A stretch of 64,000 nucleotides of DNA, from positions 64,001-128,000 of the IMG/VR virus record IMGVR_UViG_3300021387_000090; one strand, 5' to 3'. This stretch comes from a virus. Lineage: Duplodnaviria > Caudoviricetes. Position 1 is the stretch's first letter. The number at the start of each line of letters is the position of its first letter. The translations under genes were made by a program, and so were the position numbers. The notes under the pieces were generated by a model that saw nothing but the letters and a program-made list of their open reading frames with translations, searched no databases and was not told where the DNA came from. This document shows, piece by piece, positions 5,657-39,903 of the stretch.

Positions 5657-5957
5657 TTTGTTCTTCTTCTTTGGTTTCAGTAAGTTCCATATATGTCATA
5701 ATCAAATAATTACACATATCTAAAATGGTATCTTCTATAGATTCATTTCTTACTTTTTGATCTGTTCCTTGTGTCAATGTTTTTAATCTATTCCACTTAT
5801 CTGATAATCGTACCATAGCAGCTGTAATGCCCCATTCTTTGAAGCTAAGTCCAAAAGAATCTCCATAGTCATTGTTTTTATTGGCATATATTGAATTCAG
5901 CATAAAACATATTTGTCTATGTCTCAGAACTTTACCTTTTATATCTTCAATATCCAT
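5643..5957 (-). CDS. DUF1599 / nucleotide-modification-associated domain protein
   Basis: KNNDYGDSF...RLSDKWNRL...ESIEDTILDMCNY. Confidence 0.75.
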   Translation of the reverse strand: MDIEDIKGKVLRHRQICFMLNSIYANKNNDYGDSFGLSFKEWGITAAMVRLSDKWNRLKTLTQGTDQKVRNESIEDTILDMCNYLIMTYMELTETKEEEQNDAR

Positions 5958-29279: not shown

Positions 29280-29418
29280 TCGGAGTGATAGGATTCGAAC
29301 CTATAACACACAGTTCCTTGTTCCTATGAAGTAAGTGTTATACTGCTTCATTTTACATGAGAATAATAATAACACTCAAATATATTATACTGTTGCTCTA
29401 CCGTTAAGCTACACTCCG
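29280..29418 (-). ncRNA. tRNA scaffold with a Ro60-binding (Y RNA) helix inserted in the anticodon loop
   Basis: CGGAGTG/CACTCCG acceptor, D arm, ACAGT/ACTGT stem, T arm. The insert carries TATTCTC-loop-GAAGCAG...TTACTTC, matching the Y-like elements at 37.6-39.9 kb. Confidence 0.75.
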
Positions 29419-29576
29419 TGGTGAGGTTAAAGTCCCTCAACTACACATATTACCAAGTTGGCCTATTGTCTTACATCCCTGTTCACCATTAATGTACATT
29501 AAAATATTCTATGACTACTAACGAAGCAAGTTTTTCAATACTGCGGATGGTATTCATTTGTTCTCGACCGCTATCA

Positions 29577-30283: not shown

Positions 30284-30331
30284 ACGTAGTCTTTCCTACT
30301 GTCAGATCCCTCCACTTTGCACAAGTGAAGA

Positions 30332-30532
30332 TCGGAACGACAGGAATCGAACCCGCAATCAAGTTATCAACTTGTAAGCCGTTTCAAACCTTTATTTTGA
30401 TACGAGGAATTAGTATCATTATCACGCTACCCTCGAATGGTTACAAGTCCTACGCTACCTTTTATAAGAACAAAGGGATGGTGATTAGCCAATTACATCT
30501 TCGTCCATGTCTTCCTATTCCATCACGTTCCG
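30332..30532 (-). ncRNA. tRNA scaffold with ~140 nt structured insert
   Basis: CGGAACG/CGTTCCG acceptor, ATG-GAATAGGAAGA-CAT D arm, GCGGG-TTCGATT-CCTGT T arm. Confidence 0.65.
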
Positions 30533-30591
30533 AAGTGAGAGATGGGTAATTACATCCCTTATTGGTAGTCTCTCATTCAGTTTTCTACCAC

Positions 30592-30847: not shown

Positions 30848-31074
30848 ACCAAATAATAAAAATCTTACTCAACGCCTAGACATTATTAAGGGGTCTGCGT
30901 TGCCTTCTTCCTTATCCTCATCCACTCCTCAGATTTTTATTAAATAAAATAATTAATTAATTAATTGAAGAGAAATCACACCTTTTTCTTCATATGGGGG
31001 TGTCTATTTAACATATAGATACGTTATCAGATATATCATTTCACTGATAAAAAGATTCACTTTGGGGAATCTAG

Positions 31075-31455
31075 TACGGGTAGTGGGACTTGAACCCACA
31101 CTCTCTTGCGAGAAACGGATTTTCTTACTACACTATGTCACCATAGCCATCTTAATGGATGTTGTAGTCTGGACTATGTTTTTACCATATCATTTCTGAC
31201 TTAGGTAGATGGTATATAGTCTCTACACATTTATAGATAGGGTTCGAGCGTCAATGATAACATGTTCATTCCGTCAGTCTCTCTTTTAAAAATAAACGAA
31301 CTAAAACGATTACTTCCCTATCTAATTTAGCTCGGCGTTCTCTTAGCCATTCACCGAATTAGCCATCTCCACTTATATCGTTTCCGATATAAGGCTCTCT
31401 TTTAATGTCTGCTAAGACGAAAGTCCGTTGCGTCTGCCTATTCCGCCATACCCGC
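31075..31455 (-). tRNA. tRNA-Leu(UAA) interrupted by a group I intron
   Basis: Exons 31455-31421 and 31123-31075 join to give ACGGA-CTTAAAA-TCCGT, a long variable arm and a T arm. Confidence 0.88.
31124..31420 (-). mobile_element. ORF-less group I intron (297 nt) in the tRNA-Leu anticodon
   Basis: Inserted after U34, ends in G. Core GAGACUA / UAGUCC (P7), AAUUCGGUGAA and GCCGAGCU (P4-P6 region). Confidence 0.85.
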
Positions 31456-37617: not shown

Positions 37618-37713
37618 AAGCTGAGAATAATAAAACGAGTTTATATAATACAACACCCATCATCAAAAAAACTTACCTACTTGTTAGAAGTAACTCGTTT
37701 TCCGCTTCAGCTT
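37618..37713 (-). ncRNA. Y-RNA-like element 1 (D-arm-like insert only)
   Basis: AAGCTGAAGCGG-AAAACGAGTTACTTC...AACTCGTTTT-ATTATTCTCAGCTT terminal helix. Confidence 0.75.
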
Positions 37714-37733
37714 ATCTGAAAGGACTTTTTATC

Positions 37734-37839
37734 AACCGAGAATATTTGAAGAGTTCATATGGGATTCGAACCCACTTAGTTAGATTTACAGTCTAGTGAT
37801 AAACCAAATATCGAAGTAACTCTTCAGGCCGCTTCGGTT
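37734..37839 (-). ncRNA. Y-RNA-like element 2 with D, anticodon (GUA, Tyr) and T arms
   Basis: Conserved helix enclosing GATA/TATC D arm, CTAGA-CTGTAAA-TCTAA and GTGGG-TTCGAAT-CCCAT. Confidence 0.8.
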
Positions 37840-37857
37840 ATATTAATATTCATGTTA

Positions 37858-37971
37858 ATAGCCGAGAATAATGATAGGGTTTTATACCTTGGGATTCGAA
37901 CCCAAATAATCCAATTACCAATTAGAAGCATTACCATTATGCGAAGTAACCCTAACAACCGCTTCAGCTAT
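37858..37971 (-). ncRNA. Y-RNA-like element 3 with D, anticodon (GGU, Thr) and T arms
   Basis: Conserved helix enclosing GCAT/ATGC D arm, TCTAA-TTGGTAA-TTGGA and TTGGG-TTCGAAT-CCCAA. Confidence 0.8.
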
Positions 37972-37987
37972 ATAATTTATCATCATA

Positions 37988-38120
37988 ATAGACGAGAATA
38001 AGATAACAGTTTTTTAGTATCTTTCAATTGGAATCGAACCAATAATAGTTTTCTTAAAAGGAAAATGACTTAACCGTTTGTCTATAAAAGAGAAGTAACT
38101 GTTATAACCGCTTCGCCTAT
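37988..38120 (-). ncRNA. Y-RNA-like element 4 enclosing a complete tRNA-Lys(UUU)-like cloverleaf (38019-38091)
   Basis: GGCGAAGCGG...GTTACTTC, then TCTTTTA/TGAAAGA acceptor, D arm, TTTTC-CTTTTAA-GAAAA, ATTGG-TTCGATT-CCAAT, then AACTGTTAT-CTTATTCTCGTC. Confidence 0.8.
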
Positions 38121-38126
38121 ATTTTA

Positions 38127-39791
38127 TTACTGTTTATTTCGTTTTCTATTATCTTTTTCTTGATCTTTCTGATCCCATAACTTGATCATAGCATCAGCAA
38201 AAACAAGTTCTTTACCAGTCCAACCATACATAATGTTTGTTCTATATCCGTATTCAGGAACCAATACATTACTGTATCCCGCAGTTTGTACACAGAACAC
38301 ATTTACTTTAGGATTAACTTTGTTTCTGTATTCCTGAATAAGTTTGGCTACATCAATGTAAGTTATTCCACAGCAAAAACCAGCTTCTCTATATTCACGC
38401 TCACCTTGAAGTGTTCCATAAAGCCCACCATGACCAGCTTGCATATCTGAATAGATAAAGATATTATCCCAATGTTCTTTCTTTTTGATGGCGTCTCTAA
38501 AGAAAATCCAAACACCATTTTCTGTACCGCCACCGACATCTCTACTCCGTCCACTGGTAATTTTTTCAGCCTGTGTTAATACACCATTCCGTTTGGAAAT
38601 GGGCGTAATAATTAACTCATCCCCAAACTTACCAACATACCCCTCGTCGCTATTCTTGGCAGTAATAACAGAACTTAGATTATCAATCTCCGCAACAGTC
38701 ACGCTACCATACTCAGAATTAAAAGCGCCCCATGCAGATCCGCTATTATCAGAAAGACACATTGTCTTACCTTTTAGCTTCGGCATATTATCACAAGCAA
38801 TATCAATACATTCTTCCAAAGCATCAAGTACTATGGGCTTATGATATATGTCTGCCTTTTCAAGCATTTTATATGCAGACCAATAACGGAAAGGGAACTG
38901 CTTTCCATTGATTACACCTTTCTTCAGATAATCAAGGATTCTTTTACATAAATCAGCATCCAAAATCTCTGTAAAGATATTCCTTAAATTACGAAGGAGG
39001 CTCATGTGATTAAGAACTTTGGCATCCCAAATCTCTCTCCAAGTTTTTCCTGCGGATTTTAATCTTTCCCACGTTGACTCATTATCTTCTACTTTAATTG
39101 TACCAGTGGTCATTAATTCATCAATCACTGAATTATTTGCATGACAAATTCTTACGGTATCAATCATGCCCACGTTTGCGTTTTTATATTTCGCCAGTTC
39201 ATATCTGGTTCCATTCTTCAAACGCTTTGCCCAAGATCTTTTTAAAATAGAAGGAATATGATTCTTCTTTCCGTTTCTATACAGCCAATAAGTAAGCTGA
39301 GAACTAGGTTCGTCTGCTCTACTCATTACCTGATAATTAATTTCAGAGAAAAGACCGGGATGTTCTTCGTCAAACTGTACTCTCTTTGGATGCATTGCAG
39401 CACGAACCATAATCACTTGCGGATTCAACCGCATATAATAATCTTTTCGTAATTCCAAAGCCCAACGAATGGTAGCTTCAAAATCTGCATCCAGAGCGTC
39501 ATCAATAACTGTTTCCATTACTTCAGAAGTCTTTTTACCATTCCACTGATCACCAATTACAGCATAATCAGCAAAGGTTCTATTCAATGTAAAAATACCA
39601 TCAAGGACTCCTTTTTGGGCAAATTCACCAGTTCTATAATACTGAGGTTCGCCCATGATCGAGGATGCTGTAACCATTTTCATTGTTTCCACGGGAGAAA
39701 GTCCATAAGATATACCCCCCATATAATTGGTTTGGGCCTTTTTTGTTTCTGTAGTTCTCTTTTCTGTTACCGCTCTAGCCATTCTACTCAT
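38127..39791 (-). CDS. rsr: Ro60/Rsr TROVE-domain RNA-binding protein with C-terminal vWA
   Basis: N-terminal NYMGG, helical TROVE (SLLRNLRN, QFPFRY.SAY), MIDAS DNSGS, GGT, IYSDMQ, GW at the C-terminus. Confidence 0.9.
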   Translation of the reverse strand: MSRMARAVTEKRTTETKKAQTNYMGGISYGLSPVETMKMVTASSIMGEPQYYRTGEFAQKGVLDGIFTLNRTFADYAVIGDQWNGKKTSEVMETVIDDALDADFEATIRWALELRKDYYMRLNPQVIMVRAAMHPKRVQFDEEHPGLFSEINYQVMSRADEPSSQLTYWLYRNGKKNHIPSILKRSWAKRLKNGTRYELAKYKNANVGMIDTVRICHANNSVIDELMTTGTIKVEDNESTWERLKSAGKTWREIWDAKVLNHMSLLRNLRNIFTEILDADLCKRILDYLKKGVINGKQFPFRYWSAYKMLEKADIYHKPIVLDALEECIDIACDNMPKLKGKTMCLSDNSGSAWGAFNSEYGSVTVAEIDNLSSVITAKNSDEGYVGKFGDELIITPISKRNGVLTQAEKITSGRSRDVGGGTENGVWIFFRDAIKKKEHWDNIFIYSDMQAGHGGLYGTLQGEREYREAGFCCGITYIDVAKLIQEYRNKVNPKVNVFCVQTAGYSNVLVPEYGYRTNIMYGWTGKELVFADAMIKLWDQKDQEKDNRKRNKQ

Positions 39792-39808: not shown

Positions 39809-39903
39809 AATTCGTGAATATTTAAGAGTGCTTAAAAATATATGTAGGGAAGATTTCAAGTCTTTTCTTTATAATTGAAGTAACACTCTTACCGCTACGA
39901 ATT
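39809..39903 (-). ncRNA. Y-RNA-like element 5 (leader of the Ro60 gene) with a UGA (Ser) anticodon-like stem-loop
   Basis: AATTCGTAGCGG-TAAGAGTGTTACTTC...AAGA-CTTGAAA-TCTT...GCACTCTTA-AATATTCACGAATT. Confidence 0.75.

What the first reader, a model, noticed from the sequence alone, without database searches (positions are those of the whole stretch)
29280..29418. Circularly permuted Y RNA: Ro-binding helix grafted into the anticodon loop of a tRNA body
Seen: about 8 kb from the Ro60 locus, a tRNA has normal acceptor, D and T arms and an ACAGT/ACTGT anticodon stem. Its loop is replaced by GAGTGTTAT-TATTATTCTCAT-[GTAAA]-ATGAAGCAG-TATAACACT-TACTTC. This is the same two-strand motif as the five Y-like elements but in reversed order (3' strand first, closed by a 5-nt loop). 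Inference: a Y RNA with free tRNA-like ends that RNase P and CCA-adding enzyme could mature and that might even be aminoacylated, presenting an acceptor end on Ro60. It is the topological complement of the acceptor-blocked elements and would be missed or miscalled as an intron-containing tRNA.
Basis: partly seen in the sequence, partly recalled or inferred. Interest (0 to 1): 0.9.

Follow-up and report, generated by a model that had tools for sequence, protein, structure and literature searches.

The report
tRNA-shaped phage Y RNA, free ends
A 155-kb phage encodes a small RNA with a normal tRNA body whose anticodon loop is replaced by the docking hairpin for the phage's own Ro60 protein; known bacterial and phage Y RNAs of the YrlA type have the opposite connectivity, and this form was not found described in the papers searched.

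Summary
On the minus strand, 29418..29280 is a tRNA-shaped gene with perfect acceptor, D, anticodon and T stems. A 74-nt insert replaces its anticodon loop.

The insert carries the three motifs shared by the five Y RNA-like elements flanking the phage Ro60 gene: UUAUUCUC, GAAGCRG and UUACUUC. Here they run in the reverse order and are closed by a 5-nt loop. The motif pair occurs five times in the window against zero expected.

The architecture recurs in at least five phage lineages, with 2-3 copies in some. All helices covary: 26 of 33 pairs changed on both sides, and no shuffle of 500 matched the observed score. Every record with enough context also encodes Ro60. A covariance model built without the window sequence finds it at 56 bits.

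Normal-connectivity members of the same motif family give sub-threshold hits to Rfam YrlA. Published YrlA is described as a circularly permuted tRNA with a closed acceptor loop. This element is therefore the native-tRNA-order YrlA, with a free acceptor end and a closed Ro60 handle.

An intron reading is unlikely. Ro60 binding, RNase P and CCA maturation, and charging are all untested, and charging of this copy looks improbable. I rate it a new variant of a known kind.

The parts
29412..29418 (-). Acceptor stem, 5' strand (CGGAGUG)
   Evidence: 7 of 7 Watson-Crick pairs with 29281-29287. All 7 acceptor pairs covary in A3.
29395..29409 (-). D arm (GCUU-AACGGUA-GAGC) with G18 G19
   Evidence: Rfam tRNA alignment. 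D helix 100% paired in A3.
29389..29393 (-). Anticodon stem, 5' strand (ACAGU)
   Evidence: 5 of 5 pairs with ACUGU at 29310-29314, at canonical spacing (1 nt after the D stem; 5-nt variable loop before the T stem). The relative L178 has UAAGA/UCUUA at the same place.
29378..29388 (-). A/U-rich 5' joiner (AUAAUAUAUUU)
   Evidence: Read from the sequence. Relatives have A-rich joiners here.
29369..29377 (-). Handle helix H2, first strand (GAGUGUUAU). It corresponds to the 3' strand of H2 in the linear Y elements.
   Evidence: 9 bp with 29333-29341. The outer H2 pairs covary across lineages.
29359..29366 (-). Conserved motif UUAUUCUC (3'-strand motif of the Y handle)
   Evidence: Exact match here and in three of the Ro60-flanking elements. 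AUUCUC is conserved in most permuted relatives.
29348..29360 (-). Handle helix H1 closed by a loop: UCAU-GUAAA-AUGA
   Evidence: Folds. Several relatives cap H1 with GNRA tetraloops (GUAA, GCGA, GUGA, GAAA) and the H1 stem covaries.
29343..29349 (-). Conserved motif GAAGCAG (5'-strand motif; compare the published GNCGAAN0-1G of YrlA)
   Evidence: motif definition in PMC4201824.
29333..29341 (-). Handle helix H2, second strand (AUAACACUU)
   Evidence: Pairs with 29369-29377.
29328..29334 (-). Invariant motif UUACUUC next to H2
   Evidence: GUUACUUC/CUUACUUC is identical in all 15 aligned permuted elements and in the five Ro60-flanking elements.
29315..29327 (-). 3' joiner AUAGGAACAAGGA, similar to AUAUAGGCAAG in the relative L015
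   Evidence: There is no intact anticodon arm here, unlike the five-arm relatives.
29310..29314 (-). Anticodon stem, 3' strand (ACUGU)
29288..29309 (-). Variable loop GUGUU and T arm AUAGG-UUCGAAU-CCUAU
   Evidence: Rfam tRNA alignment. T helix 100% paired in A3.
29280..29287 (-). Acceptor stem 3' strand (CACUCCG) plus discriminator A; no encoded CCA
   Evidence: The downstream sequence begins CUG.
38127..39791 (-). Phage Ro60 (TROVE) gene, the presumed protein partner
   Evidence: Pfam TROVE 25.8 bits. Matches PDB 9KOP/9L5Y, Thermus phage Ro60, at E 6e-11. 60% identical to Bacillus phage G gp540.
37618..38118 (-). Four tandem linear Y RNA-like elements downstream of Ro60, with the handle at the acceptor end and D-to-T order
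39809..39903 (-). Fifth linear Y-like element, upstream of Ro60, with variant motif CGUAGCGG / AAUAUUCACG

Best explanation
This is a real non-coding RNA gene: a YrlA-type Y RNA written in native tRNA order.

What the RNA looks like (shown from sequence and covariation): it has a complete tRNA upper body, with a 7-bp acceptor stem, D arm, T arm, the conserved tertiary nucleotides and an anticodon stem. The anticodon stem continues, through an asymmetric internal loop, into a closed hairpin. That hairpin is the Ro60-docking handle also found on the five Y RNAs next to the phage's Ro60 gene.

How it most likely works (inferred steps):
1. It is transcribed with the neighbouring tRNA-Lys and tRNA-Leu genes of the RNA island.
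2. RNase P cuts its 5' end. Its 3' end is trimmed and CCA-tailed by host enzymes. The acceptor/T-arm half that these enzymes recognise is intact, and the phage has no CCA-adding enzyme of its own.
3. Phage Ro60 binds the hairpin.

The result would be a Ro60 particle that displays a tRNA elbow and, unlike canonical YrlA, a free acceptor end. The likely role is the usual Y RNA role: tethering or gating Ro60 towards a tRNA-binding factor. Here the factor would be one that needs, or tolerates, an open 3' end.

The form probably arose from tandem YrlA copies by reading from one copy's acceptor strand to the next copy's acceptor strand, with the inter-copy spacer shrinking to a capping loop.
For: Motif identity with the Ro60-flanking elements: 5 matches against 0 expected, and these are the only matches in the genome.

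Body: full tRNA model score of 51.5 bits with the insert confined to the anticodon loop. The cloverleaf plus hairpin folds within 3.3 kcal/mol of the minimum free energy.

Recurrence: the same architecture occurs in related phages at 76% Ro60 identity (L013/L015/L022/L178), in L014, in the L065/L151/L200/L203/L237/L238 group (2-3 copies each) and in L231.

Independent recognition: a covariance model built only from other lineages finds the window element full-length at 56 bits, E 6.6e-11.

Covariation on 15 sequences: 89.8% of cells are paired, against 73% in shuffles and 39-49% with slid partners. 26 of 33 pairs changed on both sides, and 0 of 500 shuffles reached the observed value. RNAalifold recovers the five helices on its own.

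Window against L015/L178: every helix differs in sequence but stays paired, while UUAUUCUC, GAAGCRG and UUACUUCAUA are kept.

Ro60 co-occurrence: a Ro60 gene is present in every record with enough context.

Link to YrlA: normal-connectivity members of the same motif family hit Rfam YrlA RF02553 at E 2.5e-5 to 0.06.

Precedent: M. smegmatis YrlA with a 7-bp acceptor stem is cut by RNase P and CCA-tailed in vivo, and both halves co-precipitate with Rsr (PMC4201824).

Possible intermediates: tandem YrlA arrays with 14-nt spacers (L043/L075) also score in the tRNA-order reading, at 58 bits.
Against: Ro60 binding is inferred only from motif sharing and co-occurrence.

The published motif GNCGAAN0-1G is only partly matched (AAUGAAG). 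RF02553 does not hit the element.

The element lies 8.7 kb from Ro60, not beside it.

The covariation alignment was fitted to the model, and the number of independent lineages is small (about 5-6).

The minimum-free-energy fold of the single sequence prefers an alternative pairing of the T region.
Confidence: 0.7

Rival explanations
1. tRNA chassis only. The tRNA body is a generic expression and stability frame that gives defined ends and nuclease resistance. It is not an effector-binding domain. The active part is just the Ro60-binding hairpin, acting for example as an extra Ro60 gate or titrator.
For: The same RNA island holds other tRNA frames with unrelated inserts in the anticodon region: 30330-30533 with 113 nt and 31074-31455 with 297 nt (earlier notes). 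L014 has a sister frame with a different insert, 5727-5854. The tRNA bodies differ between lineages in acceptor sequence and discriminator (A, G, C or U across lineages), so no single tRNA identity is conserved.
Against: The tertiary-core nucleotides and the elbow are strictly kept. In YrlA it is the elbow that is thought to bind the effector (bioRxiv 10.1101/312249). Many relatives also keep an anticodon-like arm with a YU-NNN-RA loop next to the handle. That is more than a chassis needs.
Confidence: 0.17
2. Intron-containing tRNA. The insert is removed after transcription and the product is an ordinary decoding tRNA. The resemblance to the Y handle only reflects an intron derived from a Y RNA.
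For: The insert sits in the anticodon loop. Excision could leave AUAAGGA, with U33 and anticodon AAG. The phage has another tRNA with a long insert, 31074-31455.
Against: At 74 nt it is too short for a self-splicing group I intron, and no intron family is hit.

The phage has no RtcB. On present knowledge, bacteria lack a tRNA splicing endonuclease (stated in bioRxiv 10.1101/312249).

In the relatives L015/L013/L178 the 5' side of the loop reads GAAAAA. No excision can therefore give U33.

The conserved positions of the insert are exactly those conserved in the Ro60-flanking Y RNAs.

No insert-less copy of this tRNA body was found in viral contigs. This was an exact-pattern search, so it is a weak negative.
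Confidence: 0.06
3. Inert recombination relic. A Y element recombined into a tRNA gene, leaving a dead chimera.
For: Its H2 helix (AUAACAC) is nearly the same as that of the first Ro60-flanking element (AUAACAG), so intragenomic exchange is plausible.
Against: All six helices are intact. The architecture is kept, with compensatory changes, in several diverged phage lineages and in multiple copies.
Confidence: 0.04

Closest known systems
YrlA (Y RNA-like A; Rfam RF02553; Chen et al. 2014, PMC4201824; structure in Wang et al. 2018, bioRxiv 10.1101/312249)
   Same: A Ro60-binding helix carrying a (N)CGAAG-type motif is attached at the anticodon-stem position of a tRNA-like core. The core has D and T arms, an acceptor stem and tRNA tertiary nucleotides. 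It is encoded in genomes that have Ro60, phages included. Normal-connectivity members of the same phage motif family hit RF02553.
   Different: Connectivity. YrlA begins and ends in the Ro helix and its acceptor stem is a closed loop, so it is described as 'a circularly permuted tRNA'. Here the RNA begins and ends at a 7-bp acceptor stem and the Ro helix is closed by a loop. RF02553 does not detect it. It lies 8.7 kb from Ro60.
[quoted passage not shown]
   Same: A Ro60-bound YrlA with an open, CCA-tailed acceptor end exists in vivo. This is the same final shape proposed here.
   Different: In M. smegmatis it is a two-piece RNA made by cutting a canonical YrlA. Here it would be a single chain encoded directly in tRNA order.
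D. radiodurans Yrn1 and the window's own Ro60-flanking elements
   Same: They share the Ro60 handle motifs. The D arm precedes the T arm.
   Different: In those RNAs the handle occupies the acceptor end, leaving no free acceptor. Here it occupies the anticodon end.
Circularly permuted genes of tRNA-like RNAs: permuted tRNA genes of Cyanidioschyzon (cited in bioRxiv 10.1101/312249) and two-piece/permuted tmRNA genes (own knowledge)
   Same: They set a precedent that one tRNA-like fold can be encoded in two circularly permuted gene orders.
   Different: Those are processed into canonical tRNA or tmRNA function. No Ro60 handle is involved.
Engineered 'tRNA scaffold' for recombinant RNA expression (Ponchon and Dardel; own knowledge)
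   Same: A foreign structured RNA replaces the anticodon loop of a tRNA. The chimera is processed and stabilised like a tRNA.
   Different: That is a laboratory design. This is a natural, conserved phage gene.

Membership tests
YrlA (RF02553) | Ro60-binding stem with the GNCGAAN0-1G motif on its 5' strand | tested here: inconclusive
   The element has AAUGAAGCAG. The GAAG core is kept, but G1 and C3 are replaced. Two of the Ro60-flanking elements likewise read GCUGAAG (motif from PMC4201824).
YrlA (RF02553) | tRNA-like core with D and T arms and conserved tertiary nucleotides | tested here: met
   RF00005 at 51.5 bits. U8, A14, G18G19, U54U55C56, A58 and A15/U48 are present.
YrlA (RF02553) | Ro helix at the anticodon-stem position | tested here: met
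   The handle hairpin extends the ACAGU/ACUGU stem.
YrlA (RF02553) | Gene order Ro 5' strand, T arm, closed acceptor stem-loop, D arm, Ro 3' strand | tested here: not met
   The order here is acceptor 5', D, handle hairpin, T, acceptor 3'. This is the circular permutation.
YrlA (RF02553) | Match to the Rfam covariance model at the gathering score | tested here: not met
   No RF02553 hit on the element even at E up to 1-5. Canonical-order relatives reach 28-40 bits against a gathering score of 69.
YrlA (RF02553) | Encoded next to a Ro60/Rsr gene | tested here: inconclusive
   Same genome, same strand, 8.7 kb away. The distance is 2.5 kb in L023 and about 10-11 kb in L014 and L065.
YrlA (RF02553) | Bound by Ro60 in vivo | not testable with these tools
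   Needs co-immunoprecipitation or EMSA.
tRNA (RF00005) | Cloverleaf with acceptor, D and T arms | tested here: met
   51.5 bits against a gathering score of 29.
tRNA (RF00005) | 7-nt anticodon loop with U33 and an anticodon | tested here: not met
   74 nt lie between the anticodon-stem strands.
Intron-containing tRNA | Recognisable intron (group I core or bulge-helix-bulge) and a canonical anticodon loop after excision, conserved in orthologues | tested here: not met
   No intron family is hit. L015/L178 cannot give U33 after any excision. The phage has no RtcB.

The most novel reading that the evidence does not exclude
These tRNA-order Y RNAs are matured, CCA-tailed and engaged by the machinery that handles the tRNA acceptor end: aminoacyl-tRNA synthetases, EF-Tu, or host toxins that modify or cut the 3' end. 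Phage Ro60 would then carry a bait, or even a charged tRNA-like end. In the five-arm relatives, an intact anticodon arm sits beside the handle (for example L014:5367-5495, which is a complete tRNA-Arg(UCU) shape plus the handle between nt 26 and 27). Such an RNA could be a working tRNA with a Ro60 docking arm.
Probability: 0.1. Interest if true: 0.9.

Novelty: new variant of a known kind. Interest (0 to 1): 0.62.

Why it matters
Y RNAs of the YrlA type are described as circularly permuted tRNAs without a free CCA end. Their effector is unknown and their origin is debated; one model derives them from dimeric tRNA transcripts.

A conserved, naturally encoded YrlA in native tRNA order shows three things:
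- The Ro60 handle and the tRNA core work as separable modules that tolerate either connectivity.
- Some Ro60 particles may present a free acceptor end, which widens the list of candidate partners.
- Tandem YrlA arrays in phages offer a simple duplication route between the two forms.

There is also a practical point. These genes are missed or miscalled as intron-bearing tRNAs, so phage tRNA counts and Y RNA censuses are both biased.

Finally, the element is a natural counterpart of the engineered tRNA scaffold.

Tried and rejected
- Chance: rejected.
- Coding potential: only ORFs of 29-30 aa overlap the element.
- Group I or another known RNA family in the insert: none found.
- Dedicated promoter or terminator: nothing above the shuffle level.
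- Homologues in isolate phage genomes by blastn: only T-arm fragments.
- Bacillus phage G, the closest isolate by Ro60 (60% identity): no tRNA-order element within 12 kb of its Ro60.
- Insert-less orthologue of the tRNA body in viral contigs: none, from an exact pattern.
- Bacterial and archaeal genomes: 53 pattern hits, none tRNA-framed.
- Pattern scans: most hits in viral and metagenome contigs were chance matches in coding DNA or junctions of tandem canonical YrlAs.
- MAFFT alignment of all members (A1): it misaligned the handle and was not used for counting.
- Phage-encoded CCA-adding enzyme or RtcB: none.
- Alternative reading of the window element as a five-arm form, with an anticodon arm UUCAU-AGGAACA-AGGAA after UUAC: rejected. 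It has one mismatch, no U33 and a 9-nt variable loop. The ACAGU/ACUGU stem is perfect at canonical spacing, and L178 covaries there.

Full report
**1. What is there**

The window is bases 64001-128000 of a complete 154,699-bp virus record with terminal repeats. GC is about 34% and essentially all genes are on the minus strand.

The finding lies on the minus strand, 29418..29280. It sits in an RNA island between a tRNA-Lys(UUU) at 29650-29576 and a tRNA-Leu(CAA) at 29159-29083.

Rfam's tRNA model aligns it end to end at 51.5 bits, with 72 nt inserted in the anticodon loop. Default ARAGORN does not report it. With introns allowed, ARAGORN calls it 'tRNA-Leu(aag) with a 67-nt intron'.

All four tRNA stems are fully paired, counting one G-U wobble in the D stem, and the tertiary-core nucleotides are present. 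No CCA is encoded. Only 29-30-aa ORFs overlap it.

**2. The insert is the Ro60 handle in reversed strand order**

A TROVE/Ro60 ORF lies at 38127-39791 on the minus strand. It scores Pfam TROVE at 25.8 bits. It matches the solved Thermus phage Ro60 at E 6e-11 and is 60% identical to Bacillus phage G gp540.

Five RNA elements flank this ORF. Each has:
- a terminal helix H1;
- an internal loop formed by GAAGCGG on one strand and UUAUUCUC on the other;
- a second helix H2 whose sequence differs from copy to copy;
- the heptamer UUACUUC, followed by tRNA-like parts.

In the finding the same pieces occur in this order: H2 strand, UUAUUCUC, H1 closed by GUAAA, GAAGCAG, H2 strand, UUACUUC.

The pattern GAAGCRG-N6-14-TACTTC matches five times in the window: four flanking elements plus this one. 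None is expected by chance. There are no further matches in the rest of the genome.

**3. It is a conserved class, not a one-off**

Pattern scans of viral and metagenome contigs were filtered for a tRNA frame. They recovered the same architecture in these groups:
- three phages related to this one at 76% Ro60 identity (L013/L015/L022), plus L178, L182 and L220;
- a 211-kb record (L014);
- a group comprising L065, L151, L200, L203, L237 and L238;
- L231.

A covariance model was built from L014, the L065 group and L231 only. It finds the window element full-length at 56 bits (E 6.6e-11). Ordinary tRNAs in the same search score 47 bits or less. The model also reveals second and third copies in L014, L065, L151 and L237.

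On the 15-sequence alignment:
- 89.8% of pair cells are standard pairs, against 73% in column shuffles and 39-49% when partners are slid;
- 26 of 33 pairs show changes on both sides;
- no shuffle out of 500 reaches the observed score.

That alignment was fitted to the model, which favours it. However, RNAalifold on its own recovers the acceptor, D, H2, H1 and T helices, with 20 compensated pairs.

Between the window and L015/L178 every helix has a different sequence yet stays paired:

| Helix | Window | L015/L178 |
|---|---|---|
| Acceptor | CGGAGUG/CACUCCG | GGGGAGA/UCUCCCC |
| Anticodon stem | ACAGU/ACUGU | UAAGA/UCUUA |
| T | AUAGG/CCUAU | GAUGG/CCAUC |
| H2 | GAGUGUUAU | AACUGUUA |

The unpaired motifs are kept. 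Several members cap H1 with GNRA tetraloops (GUAA, GCGA, GUGA, GAAA).

A Ro60 gene is present wherever enough flanking DNA is held. This covers the window, L015/L023, L178, L022, L013, the records of L014 and L065, and L200.

The same pattern in 185,579 bacterial and archaeal genomes gave only chance hits. With this motif, the class looks restricted to phages.

**4. Two sub-forms**

In the window and its relatives the handle sits inside a retained anticodon stem. No anticodon arm remains.

In L014, the L065 group and L231 a 5-bp stem with a 7-nt loop follows UUAC directly. The loops look like anticodon loops, for example CUUCUAA, CUCUUAA and AUGAUAA. The handle therefore emerges between the D arm and an apparently intact anticodon arm.

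**5. What it is relative to known families**

Chen et al. 2014 (PMC4201824) define YrlA by three features:
- a Ro60-binding stem with the motif GNCGAAN0-1G;
- a tRNA-like domain in the order T arm, closed acceptor stem-loop, D arm;
- the Ro stem at the anticodon position.

Wang et al. [quoted passage not shown]

Normal-connectivity members of the motif family studied here include one in Bacillus phage G (L049). They hit Rfam YrlA below threshold but significantly, at 28-40 bits and E 2.5e-5 to 0.06. These hits fall at the places where the motif pattern matched.

The finding is therefore a YrlA-type RNA whose gene is written in native tRNA order. The acceptor is open and the handle is closed.

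It is not a simple permutation of the window's own flanking elements. The four downstream of Ro60 are in D-to-T order with the handle at the acceptor end, like D. radiodurans Yrn1. The fifth, upstream of Ro60, shows no clear tRNA arms.

No paper in the searchable library describes this form.

**6. How it probably works**

- Shown: the fold elements and their conservation, the motif identity with Ro60-adjacent RNAs, and the co-occurrence with Ro60.
- Inferred: co-transcription with the flanking tRNAs. They are on the same strand, and no promoter or terminator signal rises above shuffle level.
- Inferred: RNase P cleavage, 3' trimming and CCA addition by host enzymes. The phage has no PolyA_pol-family enzyme. 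The precedent is direct: M. smegmatis YrlA, the one tested YrlA with a 7-bp acceptor stem, is cut by RNase P and CCA-tailed in vivo, and both halves co-precipitate with Rsr.
- Inferred: Ro60 binds the hairpin, giving a particle that displays a tRNA elbow plus a free 3' end.

Charging of this copy is unlikely, because it lacks an anticodon, G3:U70 and a long variable arm.

**7. Rivals**

- Intron. The insert is too short for group I and no intron family is hit. The phage has no RtcB. The relatives L015/L178 cannot yield U33 after any excision. Selection acts on the insert's Y motifs.
- Relic. This is contradicted by the covariation.
- Pure chassis. This is not excluded. The island holds other tRNA frames with unrelated inserts (notes), and tRNA identity is not conserved between lineages.

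**8. Origin**

L043/L075 carry tandem canonical YrlAs separated by only 14 nt. Read from one copy's acceptor 5' strand to the next copy's acceptor 3' strand, they already score 58 bits on the tRNA-order model. Duplication followed by shrinkage of the spacer to a capping loop is a simple route to the permuted gene.

**9. Limits**

There is no binding test. E-values from the home-made model are rough. Only a handful of independent lineages are available.

**Verdict**

The structural interpretation is supported, and the biochemical inferences are open. This is a new connectivity variant of a known RNA family.

Noticed in passing
No Rfam intron family was hit in the stretches searched.
   Followed up: no
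window 29419-29440 (-): The spacer directly upstream of the element ends in a hairpin followed by CCA (UGAGG-GACUUUAA-CCUCA-CCA). This abuts the first base of the acceptor stem, and UGGUGA about 50 nt upstream is complementary to UCACCA. It may be another small structured RNA or a processing signal.
   Followed up: no
window 38019-38091 (-): The first Ro60-flanking Y element encloses a complete tRNA-Lys(UUU)-like cloverleaf, acceptor stem included, inside the handle.
   Followed up: partly
L014:5727-5854: A tRNA frame lies between two tRNA-order Y RNAs and carries a different insert of about 55 nt: a long hairpin with no Y motif.
   Followed up: no
L043:9475-9902 and L075:3285-3712: Tandem canonical YrlA-type elements are separated by 14-nt spacers. 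These are too short to hold promoters, so the array must be co-transcribed and could be processed into either connectivity.
   Followed up: partly
L034:4376-5019 (-): A full-length ROOL RNA (RF03087, 284 bits) lies in a phage tRNA cluster a few kb from YrlA-type elements.
   Followed up: no
L250 (Bacillus phage G 395414-421039): Phage G, whose Ro60 is 60% identical to this phage's, has an annotated CCA-adding enzyme (gp522) 10 kb upstream of Ro60, and a tRNA cluster plus a tmRNA downstream. The window's phage has no CCA-adding enzyme.
   Followed up: no
L179:1697-1842 and L227: A tRNA-like frame with an 8-bp terminal stem and the GAAGCAG...UUACUUC motifs, but an atypical D region and H1. It may be a further diverged member.
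   Followed up: no
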